A DNA stretch of 64,000 bases. Source: Escherichia coli. GTDB lineage: Bacteria > Pseudomonadota > Gammaproteobacteria > Enterobacterales > Enterobacteriaceae. Each line of letters starts with the position of its first letter. Position 1 is the stretch's first letter. The notes below the pieces were generated by a model, which did not search any database, was not told where the DNA came from, and worked only from the letters and a program-made list of their open reading frames with translations. Positions 1-17,557 of the stretch are shown here, in pieces. Position numbers and translations under genes: made by a program. The stretch lies in assembly GCF_030384885.1 (NCBI RefSeq), contig NZ_CP128613.1. The stretch is one strand, 5' to 3'.

Positions 1-1979
1 ATATCATCCAGAACAGCGGTGCCGCTCTCCAGACGAGCACGGCTAACGGTATTGAAATCAGCGGTACTCACCAGTACGGCACCTTTTCCATTGCCGGAAA
101 TTTAGCGACCAATGCGTTGCTGGAAAATGGCGGTAATTTATTGGTATTAGCAGGTACCGAAGCTCGCGATTCCACGGTTGGCAACGGTGGGGCAATGCAA
201 AACCTGGGTCAGGACTTCGCCACAAAGGTTAATTCCGGTGGGCAATATACCCTTGGTCGGTCAAAAGATGAGTTTCAGGCTCTGGCCCGGGCAGAAGATC
301 TACAGGTCGCTGGCGGGACGGCAATCGTCTACGCAGGTACGCTGGCGGATGCATCGGTCAGTGGCGCGACAGGAAGCCTGTCGTTAATGACGCCACGGGA
401 TAATGTTACGCCAGTTAAACTTGAAGGGGTGGTCCGGATTACCGATAGCGCGACATTAACTATCGGAAATGGCGTCGATACGACGCTTGCCGACCTGACG
501 GCTGCCAGCCGGGGCAGTGTCTGGCTTAACAGCAATAATTCCTGTGCAGGCACCAGCAACTGCGAATATAGAGTAAACAGTTTGCTCCTCAACGACGGTG
601 ATGTTTATTTATCAGCACAAACAGCAGCGCCTGCCACAACTAACGGTATCTACAATACGCTGACCACCAGTGAACTTTCCGGCAGCGGTAATTTCTACCT
701 GCATACCAACGTTGCAGGCTCCCGGGGCGATCAACTGGTCGTCAACAACAACGCCACTGGCAATTTTAAAATCTTTGTTCAGGATACCGGCGTCAGCCCT
801 CAGTCTGACGACGCGATGACGCTGGTGAAAACAGGGGGAGGGGATGCTTCGTTTACGCTGGGTAATACCGGCGGTTTCGTTGATCTTGGGACCTATGAGT
901 ATGTCCTGAAAAGCGACGGCAACAGCAACTGGAACCTGACCAATGATGTCAAACCCAACCCGGATCCCAACCCAAATCCGAAACCGGATCCAAAACCAGA
1001 CCCAAAACCGGATCCGAAACCAGACCCGACTCCCGATCCAACGCCGACACCCGTCCCGGAGAAACGCATCACGCCTTCTACGGCAGCCGTACTCAATATG
1101 GCAGCAACATTACCGTTGGTCTTTGATGCTGAGCTAAACAGTATTCGCGAGCGGTTGAACATAATGAAAGCGAGTCCACACAACAATAATGTCTGGGGGA
1201 CGACGTATAACACCCGTAATAATGTCACCACCGATGCGGGTGCCGGGTTTGAGCAGACGCTGACCGGAATGACGGTGGGGATCGATAGCCGTAATGATAT
1301 TCCTGAGGGGATTGCGACGCTGGGCGCTTTTATGGGTTATTCCCATTCACATATCGGTTTTGATCGTGGAGGACATGGCAGTGTGGGCAGTTATTCTCTG
1401 GGGGGCTATGTCAGCTGGGAACATGAAAGTGGTTTCTATCTGGACGGTATCGTGAAGCTGAACCGCTTTGAAAGTAACGTAGCCGGTAAAATGAGCAGCG
1501 GTGGAGCCGCCAACGGCAGTTATCGCAGCAACGGGCTGGGTGGTCATCTTGAAACCGGGATGCGATTTACCGATGGTAACTGGAACCTGACGCCGTATGC
1601 ATCGTTAACGGGGTTCACCGCTGATAACCCCGAATATCATTTATCCAATGGTATGGAATCGAAATCAGTCGATACCCGCAGTATATATCGTGAACTGGGC
1701 GCAACGCTGAGTTACAACATGCGTCTGGGGAACGGCATGGAAGTTGAGCCGTGGCTGAAGGCGGCTGTGCGCAAAGAATTTGTCGATGATAACCGGGTGA
1801 AAGTGAATAATGACGGTAATTTTGTCAATGATTTGTCGGGCAGACGTGGAATATACCAGGCAGGTATTAAAGCCTCATTCAGCAGTTCGTTAAGCGGGCA
1901 TCTCGGGGTAGGGTATAGCAATGGTGCTGGTTTGGAATCCCCGTGGAACGCGGTGGCTGGTGTGAACTGGTCGTTCTGA
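1..1979 (+). CDS. AIDA-I/Ag43-type autotransporter adhesin, C-terminal part (5' end lies outside the window)
   Basis: Frame is open from position 3 with no upstream stop; Gly/Thr/Asn-rich passenger repeats, a Pro-rich linker (PNPNPKPDPKPDPKPDPTPDP), and a C-terminal beta-barrel domain ending in NWSF (aromatic terminal residue typical of autotransporters). Confidence 0.8.
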   Translation, partial: IIQNSGAALQTSTANGIEISGTHQYGTFSIAGNLATNALLENGGNLLVLAGTEARDSTVGNGGAMQNLGQDFATKVNSGGQYTLGRSKDEFQALARAEDLQVAGGTAIVYAGTLADASVSGATGSLSLMTPRDNVTPVKLEGVVRITDSATLTIGNGVDTTLADLTAASRGSVWLNSNNSCAGTSNCEYRVNSLLLNDGDVYLSAQTAAPATTNGIYNTLTTSELSGSGNFYLHTNVAGSRGDQLVVNNNATGNFKIFVQDTGVSPQSDDAMTLVKTGGGDASFTLGNTGGFVDLGTYEYVLKSDGNSNWNLTNDVKPNPDPNPNPKPDPKPDPKPDPKPDPTPDPTPTPVPEKRITPSTAAVLNMAATLPLVFDAELNSIRERLNIMKASPHNNNVWGTTYNTRNNVTTDAGAGFEQTLTGMTVGIDSRNDIPEGIATLGAFMGYSHSHIGFDRGGHGSVGSYSLGGYVSWEHESGFYLDGIVKLNRFESNVAGKMSSGGAANGSYRSNGLGGHLETGMRFTDGNWNLTPYASLTGFTADNPEYHLSNGMESKSVDTRSIYRELGATLSYNMRLGNGMEVEPWLKAAVRKEFVDDNRVKVNNDGNFVNDLSGRRGIYQAGIKASFSSSLSGHLGVGYSNGAGLESPWNAVAGVNWSF

Positions 1980-1991
1980 CCATCAACGAAA

Positions 1992-2016
1992 AAGCCCACA
2001 TCTGTGGGCTTTCATA
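1992..2016 (+). terminator. Rho-independent terminator downstream of autotransporter gene
   Basis: Hairpin gcccaca-tct-gtgggc followed by a short T-rich tract. Confidence 0.45.
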
Positions 2017-2139
2017 TCACCAGGAGCCGCGGCTCCTTTGCGTATCCTTTTATGTCTCCTCACCGTCTGGTCGGTGTCTTGCTGAGACTTCTAACTTCCT
2101 GTTTTTGTTGGTGTTGTCCTTACACCGTCCAATCATGAT

Positions 2140-2183
2140 TGGTGGGCTGGCGGGAGTTGAACCCGCGTCCGAAATTCCTACAT
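2140..2183. repeat. Direct repeat of the ssrA 3' end (att site of the ssrA-integrated island)
   Basis: tggtgggctggcgggagttgaacccgcgtccgaaattcctacat matches the terminal 44 nt of ssrA at 16498-16541 with one mismatch. Confidence 0.85.
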
Positions 2184-2310
2184 ACTAATAATATATCTTT
2201 AAAATCAAAATATTCTATTATTTATCAATGTATTATGTTTATGTGGTGTTAAGGGGTTTATATGGGTTTTAGTTCTCTGCCGCCAAAATGCCGCCAAAAA
2301 AATTGAATGG

Positions 2311-2336
2311 TAAAACGCCAGTTCGTTGAACTGGCG
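2311..2336 (-). terminator. Rho-independent terminator of the dcd-like/thyX-like operon
   Basis: Perfect 9-bp stem cgccagttc/gaactggcg with 3-nt loop, followed on the minus strand by a T run; lies just 3' of the thyX-like stop. Confidence 0.6.
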
Positions 2337-2346
2337 AGATCTTGTC

Positions 2347-3114
2347 TTATTGTTTTATTATCTTAACGTGCGCCGTTCCTCCATTGACTTTTTCGAAATC
2401 TTGGAACAAGGCAGGGGCATCTTGAGTTACAATATCGTAAAGTTTTTCTGAAACTGTTCTCATTTCATAGTCACCCTGTATTGCTCCTCTCATTTCGAAG
2501 AAGTGTCGAATTGCGCGAGCATTTGCTGTGACGATTATTTTTGTCTCGGTTGCATTAGGCAATATAGAGCGAGAAGCGCTTCTTAAGGCCCGCATTTTTT
2601 CTTTTTTGTTCTCATACGATTGGTTTTCACGGATTTTTTTCAAGGATTGCTTATAAAAATCCAGACTACTTTCAATATGTTGGCACCATGACTTAAACAA
2701 TTCTGGGTCATTTTTTACTTCTATAGGGGCTACGAATTCAGCATCGGATTCATCATGATACTGTTGGGATAACTGGCTATATGAAAAACCAGCTCTATGC
2801 CGAACTAGCTGGTGTGTAAATGCACGAGATACCCCAGTAATTAAAAAGGTCCAGTTCAAATGTTCTAAGACACTTTCATGCCCTTGAATAATTAAATTGT
2901 TGATATATTGACTTGTAGTCCGTGGAGACTGCTTATCCTCTCCAAAAGACATATAACATAGCCTGCCAGCGGCCTCTACCAGAAGCTCAGCTTCGGTCGC
3001 CTGCCCTTTGCGAACCCATTGCAATGATGATGTGTTTAAAAAATCATCAAAAACATTACTTTCAAATGAAGGGTGTGATATGCATTTTACTGATAAATCA
3101 GAGATTTTTATCAT
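2347..3114 (-). CDS. ThyX-like flavin-dependent thymidylate synthase homolog (divergent)
   Basis: 255 aa. Contains EHLNWTF...HQLVRHRAGFSYSQLSQQY, matching the ThyX signature (RHR followed by a conserved Ser) as recalled from Thermotoga ThyX, plus an N-terminal AAGRLCYMSF block. It has a one-residue insertion after RHR and Gln where the SxRY Arg is expected. Start codon lies 2 nt after the upstream gene's stop; SD gggag. Confidence 0.7.
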   Translation of the reverse strand: MIKISDLSVKCISHPSFESNVFDDFLNTSSLQWVRKGQATEAELLVEAAGRLCYMSFGEDKQSPRTTSQYINNLIIQGHESVLEHLNWTFLITGVSRAFTHQLVRHRAGFSYSQLSQQYHDESDAEFVAPIEVKNDPELFKSWCQHIESSLDFYKQSLKKIRENQSYENKKEKMRALRSASRSILPNATETKIIVTANARAIRHFFEMRGAIQGDYEMRTVSEKLYDIVTQDAPALFQDFEKVNGGTAHVKIIKQ

Positions 3115-3116
3115 TT

Positions 3117-3902
3117 TTACTCCCGTATAGCTTTTGGGGTGCTTACTTTAGCATCAACCTTTGGTTCGTTTGATTTAGCATTTTTTAGTAATTCAACGGT
3201 GCTTTTTAGGCTATTTATTTCATTTTGTTGAACTTTTATTGTTAATTCAAGATCTTTTGTACTACTGACATTACTGGATACTATTTGAAATAAGAAAGGA
3301 ATTGCTAGGGTTATCAACGTTAGCATTAAGGCTGCTATCGCAATTATAAAGCCAGTTTTTTTCGCAATGATTTTATTGATTTCTTTCGGAAGTCGTTTAT
3401 CAAGTCCTGCAAAATCCTTTCCCATTCTAGAAAGTTGATCATCATCCAATTTATTTACGATTTTTCCTTGGTAACCTTTAGTCGGTATTATTGTTTTAAA
3501 TAATAACATTCGGGCTACTGCTGAATTTTGTGTCAATGAGAATGGTTCTTTTGACATATTTACAAGATATATTGAAATTATGCCATTATATCCAGGGTCA
3601 ATATGCCCTGGATTCGTCATGATAATTCCATTTTTTGATAGTGTGTTTCTTGGAAATATTACACCAGCTAAATTTTTTGCAAGTTGGAATTTTTCATTTA
3701 ACTCTAATATTACAGTTTCCCCTGGCATCAGGATATGGTTGTTACGTGTTTTTTTATTGTCTTGACAGTCTGGTATATGTATTGTTTTTACAGAGAGATC
3801 AATGCTTGCAGATTGAACTTTAAATGTTCCATTTAATACCGTTAATGGATCAAAAATGTTGCCTCGCTGAATTTCATCATTGATTTCTATTTCAGACAGC
3901 AT
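3117..3902 (-). CDS. dCTP deaminase/dUTPase-fold protein with C-terminal transmembrane helix and coiled-coil tail
   Basis: 261 aa. N-terminal ~140 aa carry Dcd-family motifs (SIDLSV; LMPGETVILE; GHIDPGYNGIISIYLVN; LTQNSAVARMLLF), comparable to the E. coli Dcd IDPGW-G region. The C-terminal ~110 aa contain a 22-residue hydrophobic segment (GFIIAIAALMLTLITLAIPFLF) followed by a heptad-like polar stretch. Confidence 0.7.
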   Translation of the reverse strand: MLSEIEINDEIQRGNIFDPLTVLNGTFKVQSASIDLSVKTIHIPDCQDNKKTRNNHILMPGETVILELNEKFQLAKNLAGVIFPRNTLSKNGIIMTNPGHIDPGYNGIISIYLVNMSKEPFSLTQNSAVARMLLFKTIIPTKGYQGKIVNKLDDDQLSRMGKDFAGLDKRLPKEINKIIAKKTGFIIAIAALMLTLITLAIPFLFQIVSSNVSSTKDLELTIKVQQNEINSLKSTVELLKNAKSNEPKVDAKVSTPKAIRE

Positions 3903-3928: not shown

Positions 3929-4942
3929 TTATAAATTAGCCAGAGGGTTTTTTATTACTGCATCTTCAAGATGCTCTGGGGAAAAATGTGCATAAATCAT
4001 AGTCATTTTTATATCAGAGTGGCCTAAAATATCTCGTAAAACCAAAATATTACCACCATTCATCATAAAATGGCTGGCGAATGTATGGCGCAGAACGTGA
4101 GTGCATTGGCCCTCTGGTAACTCAATGTCAGCTCGCTTTACTGCTCGTTCAAAGGCTTTTCTGCAAGGAGTGAATAACTTCCCTCTGTTCTTAGGGAGTT
4201 CGTCATACAGATCCTGAGATATCGGCACGGTACGGTTTTTCTTGCCCTTAGTCTTGGTATAGGTGATCCGGTATTTCGATAACTGATGGCCCTGCAGATT
4301 TTCGGCTTCACTCCAGCGCGCGCCGGTGGCCAGGCATATTTTTGTAATTAAAAGTAGACTGGGGCTTTGAGAATCAGCACAGGCATCCAGCAGACGTTTA
4401 ATTTCTTCCGGGGTCAGGAACGACAGTTCACCCTCAGCAATTTTAAATGTTGGCAGCCCGGCAAGCGGATTGGGGGCTGACCAGTGGCCCAACTTTTTCA
4501 GTGTGCCAAAAACAGATGATAGGTTGCGCTGTTCAAGGTTTACAGTGCGGGGCTTAACGGGCGACATAAGCGTGCCCTCTTCATTTCGCACTTCACCTTT
4601 TAGCCGCGCTTCTCGGTATTTAGTAAAATCACCGGCTGTCAGCTCTGAGGCGATGGGATCGCCTAGACCATTACAGATAATTCTAAGTTTCGCCATGAGG
4701 CGCTTGGGGTCTGCGAGTGTTTGACCATACAGGGAATACCACTGCTCAATTAATTCTGATAGGTGTCGCCGATCTTCCTTTTCCCCCAGCCATGGCTTTT
4801 TGTTCACTTCTTCCATTGTGAAGCTTTCAAAAGCAATGGCTTCGCCTTTCGTAGCAAATTGCTTACGCACGCGCTTGCCATTGCGTCCATGGGGATAGCA
4901 CTCGCACAACCATTTACCGTTTGGCTGTTTTCTGACAGTCAT
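3929..4942 (-). CDS. int: Phage integrase, tyrosine recombinase (P2/186-type)
   Basis: 337 aa. Catalytic residues in conserved context: ATGARWSE (Arg), HVLRHTF (His-x-x-Arg), MIYAHF (Tyr). Directly downstream of the cI-like gene as in the coliphage 186 lysogeny operon. Confidence 0.85.
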   Translation of the reverse strand: MTVRKQPNGKWLCECYPHGRNGKRVRKQFATKGEAIAFESFTMEEVNKKPWLGEKEDRRHLSELIEQWYSLYGQTLADPKRLMAKLRIICNGLGDPIASELTAGDFTKYREARLKGEVRNEEGTLMSPVKPRTVNLEQRNLSSVFGTLKKLGHWSAPNPLAGLPTFKIAEGELSFLTPEEIKRLLDACADSQSPSLLLITKICLATGARWSEAENLQGHQLSKYRITYTKTKGKKNRTVPISQDLYDELPKNRGKLFTPCRKAFERAVKRADIELPEGQCTHVLRHTFASHFMMNGGNILVLRDILGHSDIKMTMIYAHFSPEHLEDAVIKNPLANL

Positions 4943-8072: not shown

Positions 8073-8926
8073 GCACCATCCTGAAATGGGCGGGAAATAA
8101 AACTGCCATAATGTCCGAACTGAAAAAACATCTTCCTGCTGGCCCGCGACTGGTTGAACCTTTCGCGGGTTCCTGTGCTGTGATGATGGAGACGGATTAT
8201 CCCAGCTATCTGGTTGCGGATATTAATCCTGATTTAATCAACCTCTATAAAAAGGTTGCCGCTGATTGTGAATCGTTTATATCTCGCGCCAGAGTTTTAT
8301 TTGAGATCGCAAACAGGGAGGTGGCTTATTACAACATAAGGCAGGAGTTTAATTACTCAACTGAAATTACTGATTTCATGAAAGCGGTATATTTCCTGTA
8401 TCTCAATCGTCACGGTTACCGTGGTTTATGTCGCTATAACAAGAGCGGGCATTTCAACATTCCCTACGGTAATTATAAAAATCCGTATTTCCCTGAAAAA
8501 GAAATTCGCGCATTTGCAGAAAAGGCCCAGCGAGCAACGTTTATCTGCGCCAGCTTTGATGAAACGCTGGCGATGTTGAAGGCGGGGGATGTGGTGTATT
8601 GCGATCCGCCGTATGACGGTACGTTTTCCGGCTATCACACTGACGGCTTCACTGAAGATGACCAGTATCACCTGGCATCTGTTCTTGAACATCGGTCATC
8701 AGAAGGACATCCGGTCATTGTTTCTAACAGTGACACATCCCTGATCCGTTCGCTGTATCGCAATTTTACTCACCACTACATCAAGGCAAAACGCAGCATC
8801 GGTGTGGCAGCTGGCGAGGGTAAATCAGCAACAGAAATCATTGCTGTTTCCGGGCCGCGCTGCTGGGTGGGATTTGATTATTCGCGTGGCGTGGATAGTT
8901 CTGCCGTGTACGGAGTACGTGCATGA
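8069..8926 (+). CDS. dam: DNA adenine methyltransferase (Dam-like, phage-encoded)
   Basis: N-terminal [11 protein letters not shown]...EPFAGS (AdoMet-binding motif) and the catalytic DPPY motif (VYCDPPYDG); start overlaps the stop of the upstream ORF. Confidence 0.8.
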
Positions 8927-11337
8927 GTCATGCCGATATGAACAACTGCTGCGGCTTTAACGAAGCTGCCGCATCGTTCTCATGGAACAGCCCGAAAAAG
9001 GCCATTAACCCTTATCTGGACCCGGCGGAAGTTGCGCCGGTTTCTGCGCTTTCAAACCTGATCACTCTGTACGCTACTGATAACGAGCAGGAACAACTGC
9101 GCCGCGAGGCACTGAGTGATCAGGTCTGGGAGCGTTATTTCTTTAATGAATCCCGTGATCCTGTCCAACGCGAAATGGAGCAGGATAAGCTCATTAGCCG
9201 GGCAAAGATGGCGCATGAGCAGCAGCGTTTTAATCCAGACATGGTCATTCTGACTGACGTCAACGCCCAGCCTTCCCATATCAGCAAGCCGCTGATGCAA
9301 CGTATTGAATATTTCAGCAGCCTGGGCAGGCCAAAGGCTTATTCCCGCTATTTGCGTGAGACGATTAAGCCATGTCTGGAACGACTGGAGCATGTACGCG
9401 ACAGCCAGCTATCTGCATCTTTTCGTTTTATGGCAAGCCATGAAGGGCTGGACGGTCTGCTGATCCTGCCTGAAATGAGTCAGGATCAGGTGAAACGCCT
9501 GTCTACCCTTGTCGCTGCGCATATGAGCATGTGTCTTGATGCCGCTTGTGGTGATTTGTACGCCTCCGATGATGTTAAGCCAGAAGAAATCCGCAAGACA
9601 TGGGAAAAGGTGGCTGCAGAAACCCTGCGACTGGATGTCATACCGCCTGCGTTTGAGCAACTCCGCCGGAAAAGAAACCGCCGCAAACCTGTGCCTTATG
9701 AACTCATTCCGGGTTCGCTGGCGCGTATGCTGTGCGCCGACTGGTGGTATCGGAAATTATGGAAGATACGTTGCGAATGGCGGGAAGAGCAGTTGCGTGC
9801 TGTCTGCCTGGTCAGCAAAAAAGCATCTCCCTATGTCAGCTATGAAGCCGTGATGCATAAACGTGAGCAGCGCCGTAAGTCGCTGGAGTTTTTCCGTTCT
9901 CATGAACTGGTGAACGAAGACGGCGACACGCTGAACATGGAGGATGTGGTAAACACCAGCAGCAGCAACCCGGCGCATCGCCGCAACGAGATGATGGCCT
10001 GTGTTAAAGGCCTAGAGCTTATCGCGGAAATGCGTGGTGACTGCGCCGTTTTCTACACCATCACCTGTCCGTCACGTTTCCATTCCACGCTAAATAACGG
10101 CAGGCCAAACCCGACCTGGACCAACGCGACAGTAAGACAAAGCAGCGATTATCTGGTCGGCATGTTTGCTGCATTTCGTAAGGCTATGCACAAAGCCGGG
10201 TTGCGCTGGTATGGCGTGCGGGTGGCTGAGCCGCATCATGACGGCACAGTTCACTGGCACCTGTTGTGTTTCATGCGCAAAAAAGACCGCCGCGCCATTA
10301 CTGCATTGTTGCGTAAGTTTGCCATCCGTGAAGACCGCGAGGAGCTGGGCAATAACACGGGGCCACGCTTTAAGTCTGAGCTGATAAACCCGCGCAAAGG
10401 AACGCCGACAAGCTACATTGCGAAATATATCAGTAAGAATATTGACGGGCGTGGTCTGGCTGGCGAGATCAGTAAGGAAACGGGTAAATCCCTGCGTGAT
10501 AACGCTGAATACGTTAATGCCTGGGCGTCTCTGCATCGTGTTCAGCAATTCCGCTTCTTTGGCATTCCGGGGCGTCAGGCTTACCGTGAACTGCGATTGC
10601 TGGCTGGTCAGGCGGCAAGGCAACAGGGTGACAAAAAAGCAGGTGCGCCGGTACTGGATAACCCGCGCCTTGATGCCATCCTGGCTGCTGCTGATGCTGG
10701 TTGTTTTGCCTCCTACATCATGAAGCAGGGCGGCGTACTGGTTCCCCGCAAATATCACCTCATCAGAACCGCTTATGAAATCAACGAAGAGCCGACCGCC
10801 TATGGCGATCACGGTATTCGTATTTATGGCATCTGGTCACCCATTGCAGAGGGCAAGATCTGCACTCATGCAGTGAAGTGGAAAATGGTTCGTAAGGCCG
10901 TTGACGTTCAGGAGGCGGCAGCCGACCAGGGCGCTTGCGCCCCTTGGACTCGTGGCAATAACTGTCCCCTTGCTGAAAATTTGAACCAACAGGAGAAAGA
11001 TAAATCAGCTGATGGGGACACCAGAACGGACATTACCCGCATGGATGACAAGGAGTTGCACGATTACCTGCACAGTATGAGCAAAAAAGAGCGCCGGGAA
11101 CTGGCTGCAAGGTTACGCCAGGTGAAACCGAAACGGCGTAAAGACTACAAACAGCGAATTACAGACCATCAGCGACAGCAGCTCGTCTATGAACTGAAGT
11201 CCAGGGGATTTGATGGCAGTGAGAAAGAAGTCGATTTGCTCCTTCGCGGTGGCAGTATTCCGTCAGGAGCAGGCCTGCGTATTTTCTATCGGAACCAGCG
11301 TCTGAAGGAAGATGATAAGTGGCGGAACCTGTATTAA
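8923..11337 (+). CDS. Phage replication initiation protein (P2 gpA-like rolling-circle endonuclease)
   Basis: 804 aa. HUH-type motif VHWHLLCF and active-site Tyr block [12 protein letters not shown], as in P2/186 gene A. Confidence 0.8.
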
Positions 11338-11489: not shown

Positions 11490-11678
11490 ATGCAGGACTA
11501 TTTTTTGGAGTCTTTGAAGCTCCAGCGCATTGATTTTTTTCTTAAGCTTGTAGCGGCTAGTGAGTGTAGTGATGAAGAGAAGGGGCTGGCTCTGCAGTGG
11601 GTTTCTGAACTGACAGATGAACTCATGGCAAAAATCAGAACCCACGAATACAACCGCTCAATGGATGTCATCAGCTGA
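11490..11678 (+). CDS. Hypothetical SOS-regulated small protein (possible Tum-like antirepressor position)
   Basis: 62-aa ORF with SD aggagg, immediately downstream of the LexA box; position analogous to 186 tum, but no recognised sequence similarity. Confidence 0.4.
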   Translation: MQDYFLESLKLQRIDFFLKLVAASECSDEEKGLALQWVSELTDELMAKIRTHEYNRSMDVIS

Positions 11679-11688
11679 GGTGACTTTT

Positions 11689-11922
11689 ATGCGCATTGAA
11701 ATAATGATCGATAAAGAGCAGAAGATTAGCCAGTCTACCCTGGACGCCCTTGAATCCGAGCTTTACCGCAATCTGCGCCCCCTGTATCCCAAAACGGTAA
11801 TCCGTATCCGTAAAGGTAGCTCTAACGGTGTGGAACTGACCGGACTGCAACTGGACGAAGAAAGAAAACAAGTGATGAAAATTATGCAGAAGGTGTGGGA
11901 AGACGACAGCTGGCTGCATTGA
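11689..11922 (+). CDS. DinI-family protein
   Basis: 77 aa, MRIEIMIDK...LDALESEL...KVWEDDSWL parallels E. coli DinI (MRIEVTIAK...IDALAGEL...ETWESADDWF). Confidence 0.7.
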   Translation: MRIEIMIDKEQKISQSTLDALESELYRNLRPLYPKTVIRIRKGSSNGVELTGLQLDEERKQVMKIMQKVWEDDSWLH

Positions 11923-12035
11923 TTTTGTCAATAGACGCTTGTTTTTACTAATCAAAAAGGGTTACATATGAGTGAGAGGCGATGTCAATCAGATATCGCC
12001 TTGTTTTTTGTCAAGAAAAGAATAATAGGCTAAAA

Positions 12036-12713
12036 ATGAAAATTAATAATGTAGCGTTACCAATATCTCTTGCTGTAATCCTAACTGGTTGCGTGCCACA
12101 TGCTTCTAACCGAAATATCACTGCTATTGAAGTGGTGAAGCCTGCTATTGGGCAAAGTGCTACCGCCTACATGGGCGATCCCATTATCACATCTGCTACT
12201 GGATTTAAAACGGACGTACTAGAACTTGGTGCGGCTAATGGTGCATTGTCTTCTATCGCTGCTGGTACATATTGCAGTGAGGGGAATGGAATTTACCGCA
12301 ATTATCATAACCCTCAAGCTGTTGCGTTAAAAAATCTCTATGGGCAAATCGGTAACTATGTTGATTATGTTAGTTACGATGCTGCAAAAAATGAGATATC
12401 ACCGCCAAATGGTACTTCTTATACTGCATCAGAAATTTCTATCAAACGTGTTCCTGATGGGCTGTGTCGAGTTAGTAACTCATTGGTTAAGACTATCGAA
12501 TACAATGGAAATGCAGGCGGTGTAATGAAGTTCACCTATCGTGAATTTGCAAACGATATGGCTCGTGCAGCATTTACAACAGATTTTTCTGTAGATTCTA
12601 AGGGAAGTGACGTTATCGCTTACAAAGGTGCCAAGTTCAAAGTGAACAAGGCTGATAACTCGTCTATTTCTTATACAATTATTTCTGGCTTTGACAAGGC
12701 TGTCACGTTCTAG
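12036..12713 (+). CDS. Prophage-encoded lipoprotein (moron)
   Basis: Signal peptide MKINNVALPISLAVILTGC with lipobox LTGC; the remainder is Ser/Thr/Asn-rich with no recognised domain. Confidence 0.6.
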   Translation: MKINNVALPISLAVILTGCVPHASNRNITAIEVVKPAIGQSATAYMGDPIITSATGFKTDVLELGAANGALSSIAAGTYCSEGNGIYRNYHNPQAVALKNLYGQIGNYVDYVSYDAAKNEISPPNGTSYTASEISIKRVPDGLCRVSNSLVKTIEYNGNAGGVMKFTYREFANDMARAAFTTDFSVDSKGSDVIAYKGAKFKVNKADNSSISYTIISGFDKAVTF

Positions 12714-12805
12714 GTTTCACGCTTACTGAGTATGTTACGATTTTGCACATTCTGCATAAACGCGCATGTCTATGCTGCATGAGATCGCATGATCGTTTGA
12801 GGATC

Positions 12806-12833
12806 TTTTGTGTTAAGGCCCGCCAGTTCTGGC
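12806..12833 (+). terminator. Rho-independent terminator after lipoprotein gene
   Basis: GC-rich stem gcccgcc/ggcgggc followed by tttt. Confidence 0.6.
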
Positions 12834-13038
12834 GGGCTTTTGCGTAGATCATGCAGGTGCATGAAAACCACTACATAAAGCGGGCAGGCGTGGCGGGGAT
12901 ACGAGCGCGCGTTATGACAAATAGATGATTAGCCTGATTTATTCACAGCTGTATAAATGATCACCTTGTAATTAGGTAAGTAATGTCTTCTATTATCATT
13001 GATTTGATAGGATTAATCTGTTTTTTGAGGATTAGAGG

Positions 13039-15375
13039 ATGATTGAAGAGGTAGTTATTGACAAAGTAGGCTCATATAATGGCCCTACTCAGCTTTTACA
13101 TGGGCTTTCTAAATTTAACTATTTATATGGAGCTAATGGTGCAGGTAAAACAACTATAAGTAAAATTATTAATGACCCTGAACAATATCCAACATGTCCG
13201 ATTAAATGGAAAAATAATATATCTTTAATAAGCTACGTATATAATAAAGATTTTGTTGAAAGAAATTTTAGTCAAGATAAAATTAAAGGTGTATTTACCC
13301 TTGGTAGCGATCTTAAGGAGGATGAAGAGAAATTAATATCTCTTGAAGAAGAAAAAAATAAGCTAATAGAATCTATTATAGCAAAGGAAAAGCTAATAGA
13401 TGGTGGTGATAATATATTAGGCGTTGTTAAACAAATCGAAGACCATGAAAAATCTTTTAAAGATTCATGTTGGAAGCAAAAAGTAAAACATGATAATGTG
13501 TTCTCAAAGGCTTTTGAGGGATTAAGGAATAGTAGTGAAAAATTTAAAGCTAGAGTGTTGGCTGAGTATGAAAATAACACATCAGAAGTTTGCTCAATAG
13601 CAGAGCTAATTGAGAAAGCAAAAATTGTTTTTTCTACTGAATTGACATCACATGTATCAATTACAATTCCATCCTTCAATGGGATAGATGATATTTTGAG
13701 TAGGGAGATTTGGAGTGAGCGTATTCTAGGGAAAAAAGACGTTAGTGTTTCAGACTTAATTACAATGCTCAATAACAGTGATTGGGTTAAGGAAGGTTTA
13801 ACATATTTCAGTAAATCTAATCCCAAGTGCCCATTCTGCCAGCAGGATGTAAATGATAATATATTTGATAATCTATCATCATATTTTGATAAAACATATG
13901 AGTTAAAAAAAAGAGAAATCGATGCATTGGTTTTACAATATGAACATCAACTTAATAATATCTTGCAGGCGATAGATGATATAAGGGCGATTAAATCTCC
14001 ATTCATAAATTATGAAGTGTTTGAGGATAAGGCTAAGATAGTATTATCTGAATTAAACAAGAATTTTGAATTGGCAAAAAATAAACGCAATTTTTTAAGT
14101 GAATCAGTTCATTTTAGTGACTTAAGTGAAGTTGTTGATGATTTTATTTCTTTTTTGAATGATTCAAATCTATTGATAGATAATAATAACAAAATACACA
14201 GTAATAGAAAGGTAGAGGCTAGTAATCTTTCTAATCAGATATGGGCATATATCGTAAAGGTGGAGTTAAAGTCTGAAATAACTTCTTACCGTAGCGAATC
14301 TGATAAATTTAATAGGAAGTTACAAGGGCTTAAATCTGGGTTAGAGGAAGACAAAAAGAAGTTAATGTTAAATGCTTCGGCTATTGAGGCAATTGAGTCT
14401 AATAAAACCAGTACTCTTCCAACTATTACAAAAATTAACAAGATTCTGGATTCTTATGGCTTCAAAAATTTTTACTTAAAACCCTCCGAAGATAAAAAGC
14501 ATTATATGATAGTGAGAGATAGTGGAGATAATGCTCGTACAACCCTTAGCGAGGGAGAAAAGACATTTATCACTTTTTTGTATTTTTATAGCCTTGTTAG
14601 AGGGAGTGATAATGCATCAGGTGTTTTAGATGATCGTGTTGTAGTATTTGATGATCCAATTTCAAGTTTAGATAGTGATATTCTGTTTATTGTAAGTTCG
14701 TTGATTAAAGATTTAATGGAGGATGTTCGTAAGGATGAAGGAAATATTAAGCAAATTATATTCCTTACACATAATATTTATTTTCATAAAGAGTTGACTT
14801 TTAATACTAAAAGATCCGGTAATCAAGCAATGAAAGAGGAGACTTTTTGGATTGTAAGGAAAAAAGGGAAGGTCTCATATCTTGAAAAGTGCGAATCAAA
14901 CCCAATAAAAACGTCTTATGATTTGCTCTGGTGCGAATTGAGAAGAACAGATATTAATAATAATACTATACAAAATACAATGCGAAGGATTTTGGAGAAT
15001 TACTTTAAGATATTAGGTGGGATGGATATTAGGAAGCTTGAATGTCATTTTTATGGTGATGAAAAAATCATATTTAAATCTTTAGTGTCATGGATTAATG
15101 ATGGTTCTCATTTTGCAGGTGATGATCTTTATATGAATTTAGATACGGAGTCTGTGCAAAAATATTTAATTGTTTTTCAGAAGATATTTGAGTGTAGTGA
15201 GCATACTGCCCATTACAAAATGATGATGGGTGAGTTTTATAGACCGTTAAATGAGTCACTTCATCTACAAGATGAGTTTGATATTGATGATAGTGCGAAT
15301 GATGAGTATGCTTCGTCAAAAATTGAGATAGAAGATGGAATAAACACATCTCTACATAGTAATACATATTTGTAA
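13039..15375 (+). CDS. RloC/PrrC-like ATPase with CxxC zinc hook (putative anticodon nuclease / abortive-infection protein)
   Basis: 778 aa, very AT-rich. N-terminal Walker A GANGAGKTT; long coiled-coil region containing CPFC; D-loop/Walker B-like VVVFDDPISSLDSD; C-terminal region with RRILENYF and downstream His residues, reminiscent of the PrrC/RloC Arg-Glu-His nuclease motif as recalled. Confidence 0.55.
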   Translation: MIEEVVIDKVGSYNGPTQLLHGLSKFNYLYGANGAGKTTISKIINDPEQYPTCPIKWKNNISLISYVYNKDFVERNFSQDKIKGVFTLGSDLKEDEEKLISLEEEKNKLIESIIAKEKLIDGGDNILGVVKQIEDHEKSFKDSCWKQKVKHDNVFSKAFEGLRNSSEKFKARVLAEYENNTSEVCSIAELIEKAKIVFSTELTSHVSITIPSFNGIDDILSREIWSERILGKKDVSVSDLITMLNNSDWVKEGLTYFSKSNPKCPFCQQDVNDNIFDNLSSYFDKTYELKKREIDALVLQYEHQLNNILQAIDDIRAIKSPFINYEVFEDKAKIVLSELNKNFELAKNKRNFLSESVHFSDLSEVVDDFISFLNDSNLLIDNNNKIHSNRKVEASNLSNQIWAYIVKVELKSEITSYRSESDKFNRKLQGLKSGLEEDKKKLMLNASAIEAIESNKTSTLPTITKINKILDSYGFKNFYLKPSEDKKHYMIVRDSGDNARTTLSEGEKTFITFLYFYSLVRGSDNASGVLDDRVVVFDDPISSLDSDILFIVSSLIKDLMEDVRKDEGNIKQIIFLTHNIYFHKELTFNTKRSGNQAMKEETFWIVRKKGKVSYLEKCESNPIKTSYDLLWCELRRTDINNNTIQNTMRRILENYFKILGGMDIRKLECHFYGDEKIIFKSLVSWINDGSHFAGDDLYMNLDTESVQKYLIVFQKIFECSEHTAHYKMMMGEFYRPLNESLHLQDEFDIDDSANDEYASSKIEIEDGINTSLHSNTYL

Positions 15376-15382
15376 TTTTATT

Positions 15383-15413
15383 GCAATTGCCAGTAGCAAC
15401 AATACGGTACTGG
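15383..15413. terminator. Bidirectional hairpin between convergent ATPase and portal-fragment genes
   Basis: 9-bp perfect inverted repeat ttgccagta...tactggcaa. Confidence 0.4.
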
Positions 15414-15424
15414 CAACTAATATT

Positions 15425-15964
15425 TTAGTTAAGCTCATATGGAGAAAATTCTATAAGTTTCTCCCCGAGCCATGCGTTTATTTCCATAAATCGTTTTTGC
15501 AAAGGAATTAATTCATTTATCACAAAAACCTTACTAGCCTTCTCCACATCCCCAAACCCCCCAACATTATTAGGCATTATCCCCATCATTTGCGGCGGCA
15601 CACGGTGTGCCGCCATCATGTCGTCCCGGCTCACGTTCTTGATATTCAGAAACTCATCCTTCGCCGCGACTTCTGACAACGGGATAATCTGAAGCCCGTC
15701 CTTTTTGCCGTTAGGAGAGTACATAAACAGGTTGCGGAAGTTGCCTGGCCCTTTGGCACTTTTCATTGCGTTGCGGAGGTTGTTCACATCTTCTTGGTTC
15801 TGTGCGGCATCGGTCATGTACATGATGAAACCTGCATGGCTGCCGTTGATGTAATACTTACGGCGGAACAGTGTGGCGGACTCGTTGAGCAGGGCTGACG
15901 GGATGGCAGAGAGATAACCTGGCAGGCCGTAGATCTCCTGGTTGATGTCCGGTTCCGCCCTTAA
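15425..15964 (-). pseudogene. Phage portal-like (P2 gpQ-like) gene fragment, 5'-truncated
   Basis: The reading frame stays open upstream of the first Met to ~15964 and then hits a stop with no start. Orientation and position (leftward, after the replication/cargo region) match P2 Q; the family assignment is from synteny and is tentative. Confidence 0.4.
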
Positions 15965-16153
15965 TCATCTCAACCATGCGTTACAGCTCGATCCCCGCTG
16001 TGGCGTGAAAAAAGACAAACAGCAGCTGGAGCGCAGACTGCGCAATGACAGCCGCTGACAGAACGTGCCCCCGCGCACGGGCGGCACGGGGTGGCGAAAG
16101 GCACAGCCACATCAAAACCCCGTCCACCGCCCTTTATTTCAGGAGAAAGCAGC

Positions 16154-16354
16154 ATGAAGTTTGTTGCGCCAGAACAGGCACCGGAACAGGCGGAAATCAT
16201 CAGAAACACGCCGTTCTGGCCTGATGTGGACCTGTCGGAGTTTCGCAGTGTCATGCGCACTGACGGCACGGTGACGCAGCCGCGTTTAAAGCAGGTTGCG
16301 CTGTCGGCAATTTCGGAGGTCAACGCACCGATACGACCATTTGCATTGATGTAA
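16154..16354 (+). pseudogene. Phage head-completion-like (P2 gpL-like) N-terminal fragment
   Basis: 66-aa ORF with SD aggaga; IIRNTPFWPDVD...PRLKQ...ISEVNA resembles my recollection of the P2 gpL N-terminus; truncated relative to ~170 aa. Confidence 0.3.
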
Positions 16355-16497
16355 ACAAAGTGAAGTTCTTCCATGTGAAACCTCTTTGCATGATTTCAAG
16401 ATGGCGACAGGCAAGATGGACGCAAAAGTCTGTCGCCATTTTGCCGCCACTACCAAAGAAAAAGGGGCTACGCTTTCACGTAACCCCTTGATTTATT

Positions 16498-16860
16498 TGG
16501 TGGAGCTGGCGGGAGTTGAACCCGCGTCCGAAATTCCTACATCCTCGGTACTACATGCTTAGTCAGTCTTTACATTCGCTTGCCAGCTGCGGACGGACAC
16601 GCCACTAACAAACTAGCCTGATTAAGTTTTAACGCTTCAACCCCAGGCAGGGCTTCCACGCGATCTCTTTTGGGTTTGACCTCTCTTGATCCCCGTCCTA
16701 AGAGCGGAGGCTAGGGAGAGAGGGCTCTAAGCAGGTTATTAAGCTGCTAAAGCGTAGTTTTCGTCGTTTGCGACTATTTTTTGCGGCTTTTTACGAGGCC
16801 AACCGCCCCTCGGCATGCACCTTGGGTTTCGCAAATCCCGTCGAATCCAGAATCAGCCCC
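16498..16860 (-). ncRNA. ssrA: tmRNA (SsrA)
   Basis: The reverse complement reads ggggctgattctggattcgacggg...gttcaactcccgccagctccacca, the E. coli tmRNA sequence, 363 nt. Confidence 0.95.
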
Positions 16861-17074: not shown

Positions 17075-17557
17075 TTAACGGTGGGCGTTTTTCATGATAC
17101 GCGCTTTATCCACCTGCCATTCGCGTTCTTTGATGTCTGAACGTTTATCGTGCTGTTTCTTACCTTTAGCGACGCCGATTTTCACTTTGCACCAGGCATT
17201 TTTCCAGTACAGGGAGAGCGCCACTACGGTATAGCCTTCTCGATTGACGCGACCGTACAATGAGTCCAGTTCGCGCTGGTTGAGAAGTAACTTGCGGGTA
17301 CGGGTAGGATCGCACACCACATGCGTGGATGCCACAGCCATTGGCGTGATGTTAGCGCCAAACAGAAATGCTTCTCCATCACGTAGAAGGACGTAGCTGT
17401 CGCTGATATTGGCTTTTCCTGCGCGCAGGGATTTAACCTCCCAGCCTTGCAGGGCAAGTCCCGCTTCGAACTCTTCTTCGATAAAGTATTCGTGACGGGC
17501 GCGCTTGTTAAGCGCGATGGTCGCTGAACCAGGTTTATGTGCTTTTTTCTTCGTCAT
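17075..17557 (-). CDS. smpB: SsrA-binding protein SmpB
   Basis: 160 aa, [28 protein letters not shown]... Confidence 0.95.

What the first reader, a model, noticed from the sequence alone, without database searches (positions are those of the whole stretch)
13039..15375. Stand-alone 778-aa RloC/PrrC-like ATPase with a CxxC zinc hook, in the position of the P2 tin/old hotspot
A very AT-rich single gene sits between the replication gene A and the remnant of the portal gene, the position where P2 carries tin and old. It has an ABC-type Walker A (GANGAGKTT), a long coiled-coil insert containing CPFC (a Rad50-like zinc hook), a D-loop-like DDPISSLD, and a C-terminal region with an R-x-x-x-E...H arrangement like the PrrC/RloC anticodon nuclease active site as I remember it. 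It is therefore a candidate tRNA-cleaving abortive-infection or restriction-backup protein, with no adjacent R-M genes.
Basis: partly seen in the sequence, partly recalled or inferred. Interest (0 to 1): 0.65.

Follow-up and report, generated by a model that had tools for sequence, protein, structure and literature searches.

The report
RloC-like tRNA nuclease in prophage hotspot
This gene is an intact, stand-alone member of the known RloC family, a Rad50-like ATPase fused to a tRNA-cutting domain. It is carried as cargo in the defence-gene hotspot of a decayed P2-like prophage, and this kind of gene at this site is already catalogued, so it is a solid but fairly ordinary finding.

Summary
A 778-aa ORF lies at 13039-15375 (+). 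It is 30.6% GC against about 52% in the flanks, and it sits between the P2-type replication gene A/dinI and a truncated portal gene.

The protein matches Pfam AAA_13 (the RloC/PrrC family) end to end (E 7e-164) and PADLOC's candidate defence family PDC-S06 (E 1e-266). Homologs at 35-45% identity are named "wobble nucleotide-excising tRNase".

Every sequence feature that defines RloC is present:
- The ABC ATPase motifs are present (K37, LSEGE 503-507, DD 538-539, H578).
- A coiled-coil insert carries CPFC 264-267. Its profile finds the Rad50 zinc-hook crystal structures as its best PDB match.
- The triad is R649-x3-E653-x37-S690-H691.

The landmark residues are invariant, or nearly so for E653, in 50 diverse homologs.

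The HEPN fold of the C-terminal domain could not be confirmed by structure search. No activity was tested.

Close relatives occupy the same P2 hotspot in Enterobacter and the P4 satellite hotspot in E. coli. Rousset et al. 2022 already list a 98%-identical gene in the P2 hotspot and flag the AAA_13 class there as "RloC-like".

Verdict: a new member of a known kind, of modest interest. Its main value is as an E. coli-native model for testing RloC-mediated phage defence.

The parts
13039..15375 (+). [quoted passage not shown] The protein is identical to RefSeq WP_040072399.1.
   Evidence: ORF. Pfam AAA_13 E 6.7e-164. PADLOC PDC-S06 E 1.5e-266. Two synonymous differences from the MINF_1D copy.
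13039..13320 (+). N-terminal half of the ABC ATPase head (aa 1-~92), with Walker A GANGAGKTT at aa 31-39 and K37.
   Evidence: K37 is invariant in 50 homologs. The AF2 model shows a beta/alpha head at pLDDT about 90. Best Foldseek matches are Rad50, LmuB, PtuA and AriA heads.
13315..14403 (+). Coiled-coil insert (aa ~93-455) with the CPFC zinc hook (aa 264-267, nt 13828-13839) near its midpoint.
   Evidence: Long helices in the AF2 model. C264, P265, C267 and Q268 are invariant. The profile of aa 225-325 matches the Rad50 zinc hooks 6zff_A (E 0.0065) and 1l8d_A (E 0.01), with CxxC aligned.
14404..14820 (+). C-terminal half of the ABC ATPase head (aa ~456-594): ABC signature LSEGE 503-507, Walker B/D-loop VVVFDDPISSLD 534-545, and switch His H578.
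   Evidence: S504, G506, E507, D538, D539, D545, Q572 and H578 are invariant. The PADLOC PrrC and LmuB models align here.
14824..15237 (+). C-terminal putative anticodon-nuclease domain (aa ~596-733): a beta-hairpin plus a helical bundle, with N646, R649, E653, S690-H691 and H725.
15235..15372 (+). Acidic, predicted-disordered C-terminal tail (aa 733-778; 11 D/E against 2 K/R). It is shared, with a SAND[DE] motif, only with close enterobacterial relatives.
   Evidence: Composition. pLDDT below 50 for aa 744-778. Sequences of P0007 and P0016. Most homologs end at about aa 731 of the query.
12764..13038 (+). Upstream non-coding stretch that travels with the gene and presumably holds its promoter. 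A GAGG/AGAGG ribosome-binding site lies just before the ATG.
   Evidence: Window 12764-15956 is 96.8-99.7% identical to three other prophages, whereas 11921-12763 is unique to this window. Sequence. No strong sigma-70 match was found in this stretch.
15425..15823 (-). Remnant of the portal gene Q (C-terminal 132 aa), which marks the right edge of the hotspot.
   Evidence: PHROG 68 portal, E 1.7e-65, profile positions 209-339 of 344. TIGR01540. The deletion junction lies at about 15948-15956.
8923..11337 (+). P2-type replication endonuclease gene A, on the left side of the hotspot.
   Evidence: PHROG 91, E 7e-290. Annotated as 'replication endonuclease' in related prophages.
11617..11922 (+). 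DinI-like gene, the conserved left-hand neighbour of the hotspot cargo.
   Evidence: PHROG 189 DinI, E 1.2e-30. The same gene precedes the cargo in other prophages and in the Rousset Table S5 entries.

Best explanation
The gene encodes a stand-alone RloC-family anticodon nuclease carried as a lysogenic-conversion (anti-phage) cargo gene in the A/dinI-portal hotspot of a P2-like prophage. The prophage has since decayed next to ssrA.

Proposed mechanism, by homology with Geobacillus kaustophilus and Acinetobacter baylyi RloC:
1. The protein dimerises through its Rad50-like ABC-ATPase heads.
2. Each head carries an antiparallel coiled coil capped by a CPFC zinc hook, and this arrangement keeps the C-terminal nuclease silent.
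3. DNA ends appear during infection, from linear phage DNA, replication intermediates or host DNA breakdown, and bind the heads.
4. ATP hydrolysis then switches on the C-terminal domain (R649/E653/H691).
5. The nuclease cuts tRNA anticodon loops and possibly excises the wobble nucleotide.
6. Translation stops and the infection aborts.

Shown here: family membership by sequence, conservation of all motifs, the Rad50-like hook and head, and the mobile-element hotspot context. Inferred: the tRNA substrate, the DNA-end trigger and phage protection.
For: - Pfam AAA_13 matches full length, E 6.7e-164.
- PADLOC PDC-S06 matches at E 1.5e-266, and the PrrC model at 2.5e-11.
- Homologs at 35-45% identity are named 'wobble nucleotide-excising tRNase' by JGI and UniProt.
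- The residues K37, C264/C267, S504/G506/E507, D538/D539, H578, R649 and S690/H691 are invariant in 50 diverse homologs. E653 is kept in 48 of 50, with D in the other two.
- 238 of 269 retrieved homologs carry all six landmarks.
- The landmarks come in the same order, at similar spacing, as the mutationally validated GkaRloC residues K44, C291, D572, R692, E696 and H737.
- The hook-region profile finds the Rad50 zinc-hook structures as its best PDB matches, with CxxC aligned.
- The full model (pLDDT 83) matches Rad50, LmuB, PtuA and AriA heads.
- The gene lies in the P2 hotspot in intact prophages. A 62% homolog lies at the same site in Enterobacter, and a 51% homolog lies in the P4 psu-int hotspot.
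- Rousset 2022 lists WP_106509408 (98% nt identity) in the P2 hotspot and flags the AAA_13 class as 'RloC-like' with 420 occurrences.
- The ORF is intact, and comparisons with other copies show 28:12 and 10:6 synonymous:non-synonymous differences that avoid the motifs.
- The gene is retained in two independently decayed ssrA-linked prophages.
Against: - No activity data exist for this protein or any close relative.
- Direct phage protection by any RloC still seems undemonstrated. A 2025 paper calls RloC's function unknown and reports a correlation with phage susceptibility, and a 2025 S. thermophilus study lists RloC as not tested.
- The C-terminal domain alone does not hit the PADLOC PrrC model.
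- I could not align the protein directly to GkaRloC or EcoPrrC sequences. The Glu-to-His spacing is 37 here and 40 in GkaRloC, so this is a different branch.
- There is no canonical HEPN Rx4-6H motif; the sequence reads W-I-N-D-G-S-H.
- NCBIfam has no model for it.
Confidence: 0.72

Rival explanations
1. The protein is a PrrC-style second-line device. It would be held silent by a type I or type III R-M enzyme encoded elsewhere in the chromosome and released when a phage anti-restriction protein inactivates that enzyme. DNA ends would not be the trigger.
For: The PADLOC PrrC model matches aa 459-703. The RloC authors leave trans interaction with R-M enzymes open. Some RloC-like genes sit in R-M operons (PMC3710099).
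Against: There is no R-M gene in the hotspot here or in any of the related P2, P4 or Comamonas contexts examined. A gene that moves between hosts as a single-gene cassette (shared block 12764-15956) cannot rely on a specific resident partner. The coiled-coil/zinc-hook switch that makes RloC autonomous is present and invariant. AbaRloC activation did not need the host hsd genes.
Confidence: 0.1
2. The protein is a Rad50/SMC-like DNA-sensing ATPase whose C-terminal helical domain is not a tRNA nuclease. The domain could instead be a general RNase acting on mRNA or rRNA, a DNA-binding or regulatory module, or an effector of some other kind.
Against: The R-x3-E-x37-SH pattern exactly fits the triad whose three residues are each essential for GkaRloC anticodon-nuclease activity. 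It is invariant across the family, which argues for catalysis rather than scaffolding. The family is annotated as a wobble-excising tRNase (COG-derived names).
Confidence: 0.13
3. The gene is an inert passenger with no current function: a leftover of a dead prophage, possibly silenced because of its 30% GC content.
For: The prophage is heavily deleted: the portal is truncated and the late genes are gone. No strong sigma-70 promoter match lies in the 275-bp upstream stretch. Only 25 of 5426 complete E. coli genomes carry the gene.
Against: The ORF is full length, and the protein is identical to the copy in an intact prophage. Differences among copies are biased towards synonymous changes and avoid the motifs. 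The gene survived two independent prophage decays at ssrA.
Confidence: 0.05

Closest known systems
RloC (Geobacillus kaustophilus GkaRloC; Acinetobacter baylyi AbaRloC, ACIAD0152): wobble-nucleotide-excising anticodon nuclease, COG4694, DefenseFinder 'RloC'
   Same: Same Pfam family (AAA_13) over the full length. Same single-polypeptide architecture: a split ABC-ATPase head, a coiled-coil insert with an apical CxxC, and a C-terminal domain with R-x3-E-x36-52-(S)H. The landmarks come in the same order as GkaRloC K44/C291/D572/R692/E696/H737. It is stand-alone, with no linked R-M system.
   Different: The protein has a different length and a Glu-to-His spacing of 37 rather than 40. It adds a 46-aa acidic tail. 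It is carried by a P2-like prophage in E. coli. No biochemical data exist for it.
PrrC (E. coli anticodon nuclease of the prr/EcoprrI type Ic R-M locus)
   Same: ABC-ATPase N-domain plus a C-terminal anticodon-nuclease domain with an Arg-Glu-His triad. The PADLOC PrrC model matches aa 459-703 (E 2.5e-11).
   Different: PrrC is about 400 aa, has no coiled-coil/zinc-hook insert, and is always embedded in a type Ic hsd locus that silences it. None of these holds here. The C-domain alone did not reach the PrrC model.
P2 hotspot 'AAA_13 / RloC-like' system no. 5 of Rousset et al. 2022 (also present in Enterobacter phage ENT4)
   Same: Same hotspot (between A/dinI and portal Q), same Pfam family, same CPFC hook, an R-x3-E ... 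GSH triad, and an acidic C-terminal tail. Table S5A of that paper lists WP_106509408, which is 98% identical at nucleotide level to this gene.
   Different: The representative sequence of system no. 5 is only 25% identical to this protein, so this is a second, rarer lineage in the same hotspot. I found no sign that either lineage was tested in that paper.
PADLOC PDC-S06 (single-gene phage defence candidate)
   Same: The best model matches positions 1-725 of 732 at E 1.5e-266, so this protein is a member of that candidate family.
   Different: PDC-S06 is a computational candidate with no assigned mechanism. I infer that it overlaps with RloC from the sequence features.
P2 Old, PARIS AriA/AriB, Lamassu LmuB, Septu/retron PtuA (ABC-ATPase sensor plus nuclease effector defences)
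   Same: Each has a Rad50/SMC-type ABC ATPase head as sensor (Foldseek matches), coupled to a nuclease that in Old and PARIS also targets tRNA. Old occupies the same P2 hotspot.
   Different: Their effectors are TOPRIM, HNH or Cap4-type nucleases, often on a separate protein. Here the effector is a fused PrrC/RloC-type helical domain, and a zinc hook is present.

Membership tests
RloC (wobble nucleotide-excising anticodon nuclease) | [quoted passage not shown] | tested here: met
   GANGAGKTT 31-39, LSEGE 503-507, VVVFDDPISSLD 534-545, H578. All key residues are invariant in 50 homologs. The head matches Rad50/SMC-type heads by Foldseek.
RloC (wobble nucleotide-excising anticodon nuclease) | Coiled-coil insert in the ATPase domain with a central CxxC zinc hook (Rad50-like) | tested here: met
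   The insert (aa ~93-455) is mostly long helices in the AF2 model. CPFC 264-267 lies near its midpoint and is invariant. The profile of aa 225-325 has the Rad50 zinc hooks 6zff_A and 1l8d_A as its best PDB hits (E 0.0065 and 0.01), with CPFC aligned to CPVC. Zinc binding itself is not testable here.
RloC (wobble nucleotide-excising anticodon nuclease) | C-terminal triad Arg-x3-Glu-x36-52-His, often with Ser before His (PMC2610378) | tested here: met
   R649-x3-E653-x37-S690-H691. R649, S690 and H691 are kept in 50 of 50 homologs and E653 in 48 of 50. The spacing is 37 in 211 of 238 homologs.
RloC (wobble nucleotide-excising anticodon nuclease) | Whole-length homology to recognised RloC proteins | tested here: met
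   Pfam AAA_13 positions 2-713 of 713, E 6.7e-164. Full-length homologs are named 'wobble nucleotide-excising tRNase' by JGI and UniProt. No direct alignment to GkaRloC was made, because that sequence was not held.
RloC (wobble nucleotide-excising anticodon nuclease) | Anticodon-nuclease activity with excision of the wobble nucleotide; activation by ATP hydrolysis plus linear DNA | not testable with these tools
   This needs biochemistry. It has been shown only for GkaRloC and AbaRloC.
HEPN superfamily (the RNase fold assigned to PrrC/RloC C-domains by Anantharaman et al. 2013) | Four-helix up-down bundle with an Rx4-6H active-site motif | tested here: inconclusive
PrrC | About 400-aa ABC-ATPase plus anticodon nuclease, with no coiled-coil insert | tested here: not met
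PrrC | Gene embedded in a type Ic R-M (hsd) locus | tested here: not met
   The neighbours are dinI, a lipoprotein-like ORF and a portal remnant. The same R-M-free context is seen in other genomes.
P2 tin/old hotspot cargo (Rousset et al. 2022) | Variable gene(s) between replication gene A (plus dinI) and portal gene Q of a P2-like prophage | tested here: met
   Gene order in the window and in intact prophages carrying the same gene. Other genomes hold different cargo at the same site, such as dCTP deaminase, KAP NTPase or S8 peptidase. WP_106509408 is listed in Table S5A.
PADLOC PDC-S06 | Match to the PDC-S06 profile HMMs | tested here: met
   PDLC04890, E 1.5e-266, aa 1-733 against profile positions 1-725 of 732.

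The most novel reading that the evidence does not exclude
This enterobacterial P2/P4-hotspot lineage of RloC may be a fully autonomous sensor of phage DNA ends. Its lineage-specific acidic, disordered C-terminal tail (aa 733-778, SAND[DE] motif) would act as an intramolecular DNA mimic that occupies the ATPase head until real DNA ends displace it. If so, this E. coli gene would give the first direct demonstration that an RloC protects against phage, and it would add a new layer of autoinhibition to the zinc-hook switch.
Probability: 0.12. Interest if true: 0.55.

Novelty: new member of a known kind. Interest (0 to 1): 0.3.

Why it matters
RloC is counted as a defence system by DefenseFinder. 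Yet the literature I searched shows its tRNase activity only for two non-model orthologs, and I found no direct phage-protection data.

An intact RloC-family gene native to E. coli would be a convenient system for three tests: whether RloC really defends, what triggers it, and which tRNAs it cuts. It travels as a compact cassette of about 2.6 kb with its own upstream region, in the same prophage hotspot that yielded Old, Tin and other validated defences.

Beyond that, the finding adds little. The family, its motifs and its presence in P2 and P4 hotspots are already documented.

Tried and rejected
1. NCBIfam search of the protein found no family at E<=0.01.
2. PDB sequence searches with the single protein, the full-length profile and the C-domain profile found no solved relative. 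They returned only coiled-coil noise and P-loop fragments.
4. The C-domain alone against PADLOC at E<=10 hit only PDC-S06 models and not PrrC.
5. I looked for GkaRloC itself among the 269 retrieved homologs by its published landmark numbering and found none. I ran no further search on this, because the verdict would not change.
6. Streptococcus phage Javan105 'translation-disabling ACNase RloC' is 26% identical. It keeps R-x3-D but lacks the GSH motif, so it is not useful as a reference.
7. The literature search for 'AAA_13' plus 'phage' was swamped by unrelated matches.
8. The promoter scan of the upstream stretch found no convincing sigma-70 site between 12764 and 13038.
9. I dismissed the antisense ORFs inside the gene (for example 13272-13826, 184 aa). 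They are nested in a gene whose plus-strand frame is conserved across more than 1000 clusters and shows synonymous-biased variation.
Full report
**Observation.** The ORF list reports an ATG-initiated 778-aa frame at exactly 13039..15375 on the + strand. Its GC content is 0.306 (GC3 0.248), against 0.528 for the neighbouring replication gene and 0.489 for the window. The GC dip covers about 12750-15250, so this is a horizontally acquired block. A GAGG/AGAGG ribosome-binding site precedes the ATG, and an inverted repeat follows the stop codon.

**Surroundings.**
- Upstream lie the P2-type replication endonuclease A (8923-11337, PHROG 91, E 7e-290) and a DinI-like gene (11617-11922).
It matches PHROG 1353 (unknown function). 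It has no Pfam, PADLOC or meaningful NCBIfam match. An internal start at M19 is followed by a lipobox, ILTGC.
- Downstream, on the minus strand, are the last 132 aa of a portal protein (15425-15823), then a fragment of the head-completion gene L (16091-16354), then ssrA/tmRNA (16498-16860) and smpB.
- BLAST against related prophages shows that window 12764-15956 is a block shared at 96.8-99.7% identity. The stretch 11921-12763 is unique to this window.
- A deletion of about 5.6 kb joins the 3' part of the portal gene to gene L. Everything beyond about 16327 of the prophage is gone.
- The element is therefore a decayed P2-like prophage at ssrA that has kept its early region and its hotspot cargo.

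**What the protein is.**
- Pfam AAA_13 (PF13166), the family that includes RloC and PrrC, matches positions 2-713 of 713 at E 6.7e-164.
- PADLOC gives PDC-S06, a single-gene 'phage defence candidate', at E 1.5e-266. It gives weaker matches to LmuB (9e-14), PrrC (2.5e-11 over aa 459-703), a MADS ATPase and AriA.
- NCBIfam has nothing. PHROG 2801 has unknown function.
- A search of 1.8 billion cluster representatives finds 1121 clusters at E<=1e-30. Nearly all align from residue 1 to about 731.
- In the 5.8-billion-protein collection, several homologs at 42-45% identity are named 'wobble nucleotide-excising tRNase' by JGI. The same name appears among AlphaFold DB matches.

**Membership test for RloC.** Davidov and Kaufmann (PMC2610378) define RloC by three features: PrrC-like ABC-ATPase motifs, a coiled-coil insert with a CxxC zinc hook, and a C-terminal Arg-x3-Glu-x36-52-His motif in which Ser often precedes His. 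R692, E696 and H737 of GkaRloC are each essential. K44, D572 and C291 are the validated Walker A, Walker B and hook residues (PMC3458546).
- In an alignment of 50 homologs (33-63% identical to the query), K37, C264, P265, C267, Q268, S504, G506, E507, D538, D539, D545, Q572, H578, N646, R649, G689, S690 and H691 are kept in 50 of 50. E653 is kept in 48 of 50, with D in the other two.
- The triad here is R649-x3-E653-x37-S690-H691, which falls within the published definition.
- The six landmarks come in the same order and at proportionate spacing to those of GkaRloC. By strict pattern matching, 238 of 269 retrieved homologs carry all of them.
- A profile of aa 225-325 searched against all PDB sequences returns the two Pyrococcus furiosus Rad50 zinc-hook structures as its best hits (6zff_A E 0.0065; 1l8d_A E 0.01). 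The alignment places G-K-C-P-F-C on Rad50's G-K-C-P-V-C.
- The AlphaFold2 model (mean pLDDT 83) shows a split alpha/beta head, long helices from about aa 93 to 455 with the hook near the midpoint, and a C-terminal helical domain.
- Foldseek against the PDB ranks Rad50-Mre11 first, followed by Lamassu LmuB, retron/Septu PtuA, AriA and SMC heads.

**Where the evidence is weaker.**
- No solved structure of a sequence relative exists.
- The HEPN assignment made for PrrC/RloC by Anantharaman et al. (PMC3710099) is therefore neither confirmed nor contradicted here.
- The C-domain alone does not reach the PADLOC PrrC model.
- The canonical HEPN Rx4-6H motif is absent; the sequence reads WINDGSH.
- I could not obtain the GkaRloC or EcoPrrC sequences for a direct alignment.
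- The protein fails both structural criteria for PrrC itself, which is about 400 aa without an insert and is embedded in a type Ic hsd locus.

**Genomic distribution and context.**
- The gene occurs in 25 of 5426 complete E. coli genomes, always on the chromosome. In 22 of them it is at 98-99.9% identity.
- The window's protein is identical to WP_040072399.1 of strain MINF_1D, with two synonymous differences. Comparisons with two other copies give 28:12 and 10:6 synonymous:non-synonymous changes. None touches a motif.
- Other genomes carry different cargo at the same site: anti-phage dCTP deaminase, KAP NTPase or S8 peptidase.
- In strain TUM12355 another ssrA-linked P2-like prophage has decayed through different deletions (A truncated, portal fused to the tape-measure gene), yet it keeps the gene intact.
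- A 62%-identical homolog in Enterobacter hormaechei sits at the same P2 site.
- A 51%-identical E. coli homolog sits between psu and int of a P4-like satellite, which is the P4 hotspot.
- A 43%-identical Comamonas homolog sits at the edge of a prophage next to umuDC-like genes.
- The isolated P2-like Enterobacter phage ENT4 carries a 25%-identical RloC-like gene between portal and A. That gene has CPFC, R-x3-E, GSH and an acidic tail.

**Prior knowledge.**
Its representative is only 25% identical to this protein, so this is a second, rarer lineage.
- No AAA_13 entry appears in their table of tested systems.
- Anantharaman et al. 2013 had already noted prophage-borne RloC-family and related ABC-HEPN proteins, and proposed that they exclude other phages independently of R-M systems.
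- A 2025 preprint notes an E. coli AAA-ATPase called PDC-S06 by PADLOC as a likely true defence protein.
- Direct phage protection by RloC appears untested or unclear.

**Mechanism proposed.** By homology with GkaRloC and AbaRloC, dimeric heads with zinc-hook-capped coiled coils keep the nuclease silent. DNA ends generated during infection stimulate ATP hydrolysis. The C-domain (R649/E653/H691) then cleaves tRNA anticodon loops, possibly excising the wobble base so that phage RNA-repair enzymes cannot reverse the damage. Translation stops and the infection aborts.

Only the sequence-level and model-level anatomy and the context are shown here. The substrate, the trigger and the protective effect are inferred. 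A lineage-specific acidic, disordered tail (aa 733-778; 11 acidic against 2 basic residues; SAND[DE] shared with P0007 and P0016) is unexplained. It might be autoinhibitory.

**Verdict.** The gene is a new, uncharacterised member of the known RloC family at a site where such genes are already catalogued. Interest is modest (0.3). Its main value is as an E. coli-native model in which to test RloC-mediated defence.

Noticed in passing
window 11982-12713 (+), probable true start at 12036: This is a second cargo gene in the hotspot. It encodes a 243-aa protein (about 225 aa from M19) with a lipoprotein signal (…LAVILTGC). It matches PHROG 1353 (unknown function, E 4e-105) but has no Pfam, PADLOC or meaningful NCBIfam match. 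The 843-bp block 11921-12763 that carries it is absent from the three other prophages with the same rloC-like gene. It could be a surface or superinfection-exclusion lipoprotein.
   Followed up: partly
window 15425-16497: The prophage has decayed. Only the last 132 codons of the portal gene remain. A deletion of about 5.6 kb joins them to a fragment of the head-completion gene L (16091-16354). The prophage sequence then stops at about 16327, about 170 bp from the 3' end of ssrA.
   Followed up: yes
window 16498-16860 (-) and 17075-17557 (-): The tmRNA gene ssrA (tag peptide ANDENYALAA) and smpB lie here. The P2-like remnant abuts the 3' end of ssrA, a classic integration site.
   Followed up: partly
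locus L003 (E. coli TUM12355, NZ_CP134376.1 1228438-1248527): A related ssrA-linked P2-like prophage has decayed through different deletions: gene A has lost its N-terminus and the portal gene is fused to the tape-measure gene. It still keeps the rloC-like gene intact. This suggests that the cargo gene is retained by selection while the phage dies.
   Followed up: partly
window 2347-3114 (-) and 3117-3902 (-): A thyX-like thymidylate synthase gene and a dCTP-deaminase-domain gene sit directly beside the prophage integrase (3929-4942). They match PHROG thymidylate synthase and dCTP deaminase families but give no PADLOC hit. This pair could be a nucleotide-pool-manipulating cargo module at the int-proximal end of the prophage.
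   Followed up: partly
window 117-1979 (+): A 620-aa ORF matches the C-terminal two-thirds of PHROG 21473 (E 0) and, weakly, a tail-fibre family. It is probably part of another phage-derived element to the left of the P2-like remnant.
   Followed up: no
window 15235-15372 (aa 733-778 of the protein): The protein ends in an acidic, predicted-disordered tail with a SAND[DE] motif. The tail is shared with the Enterobacter (P0007) and P4-borne E. coli (P0016) relatives. The distantly related ENT4 protein also ends in an acidic run. Most family members lack this tail.
   Followed up: partly
locus L004 (E. coli GCA_012710875.1 contig, 1284-3569): A 51%-identical paralogue (cluster of 114 sequences) sits between psu and the integrase of a P4-like satellite. 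The same RloC lineage is therefore exchanged between the P2 and P4 defence hotspots.
   Followed up: partly
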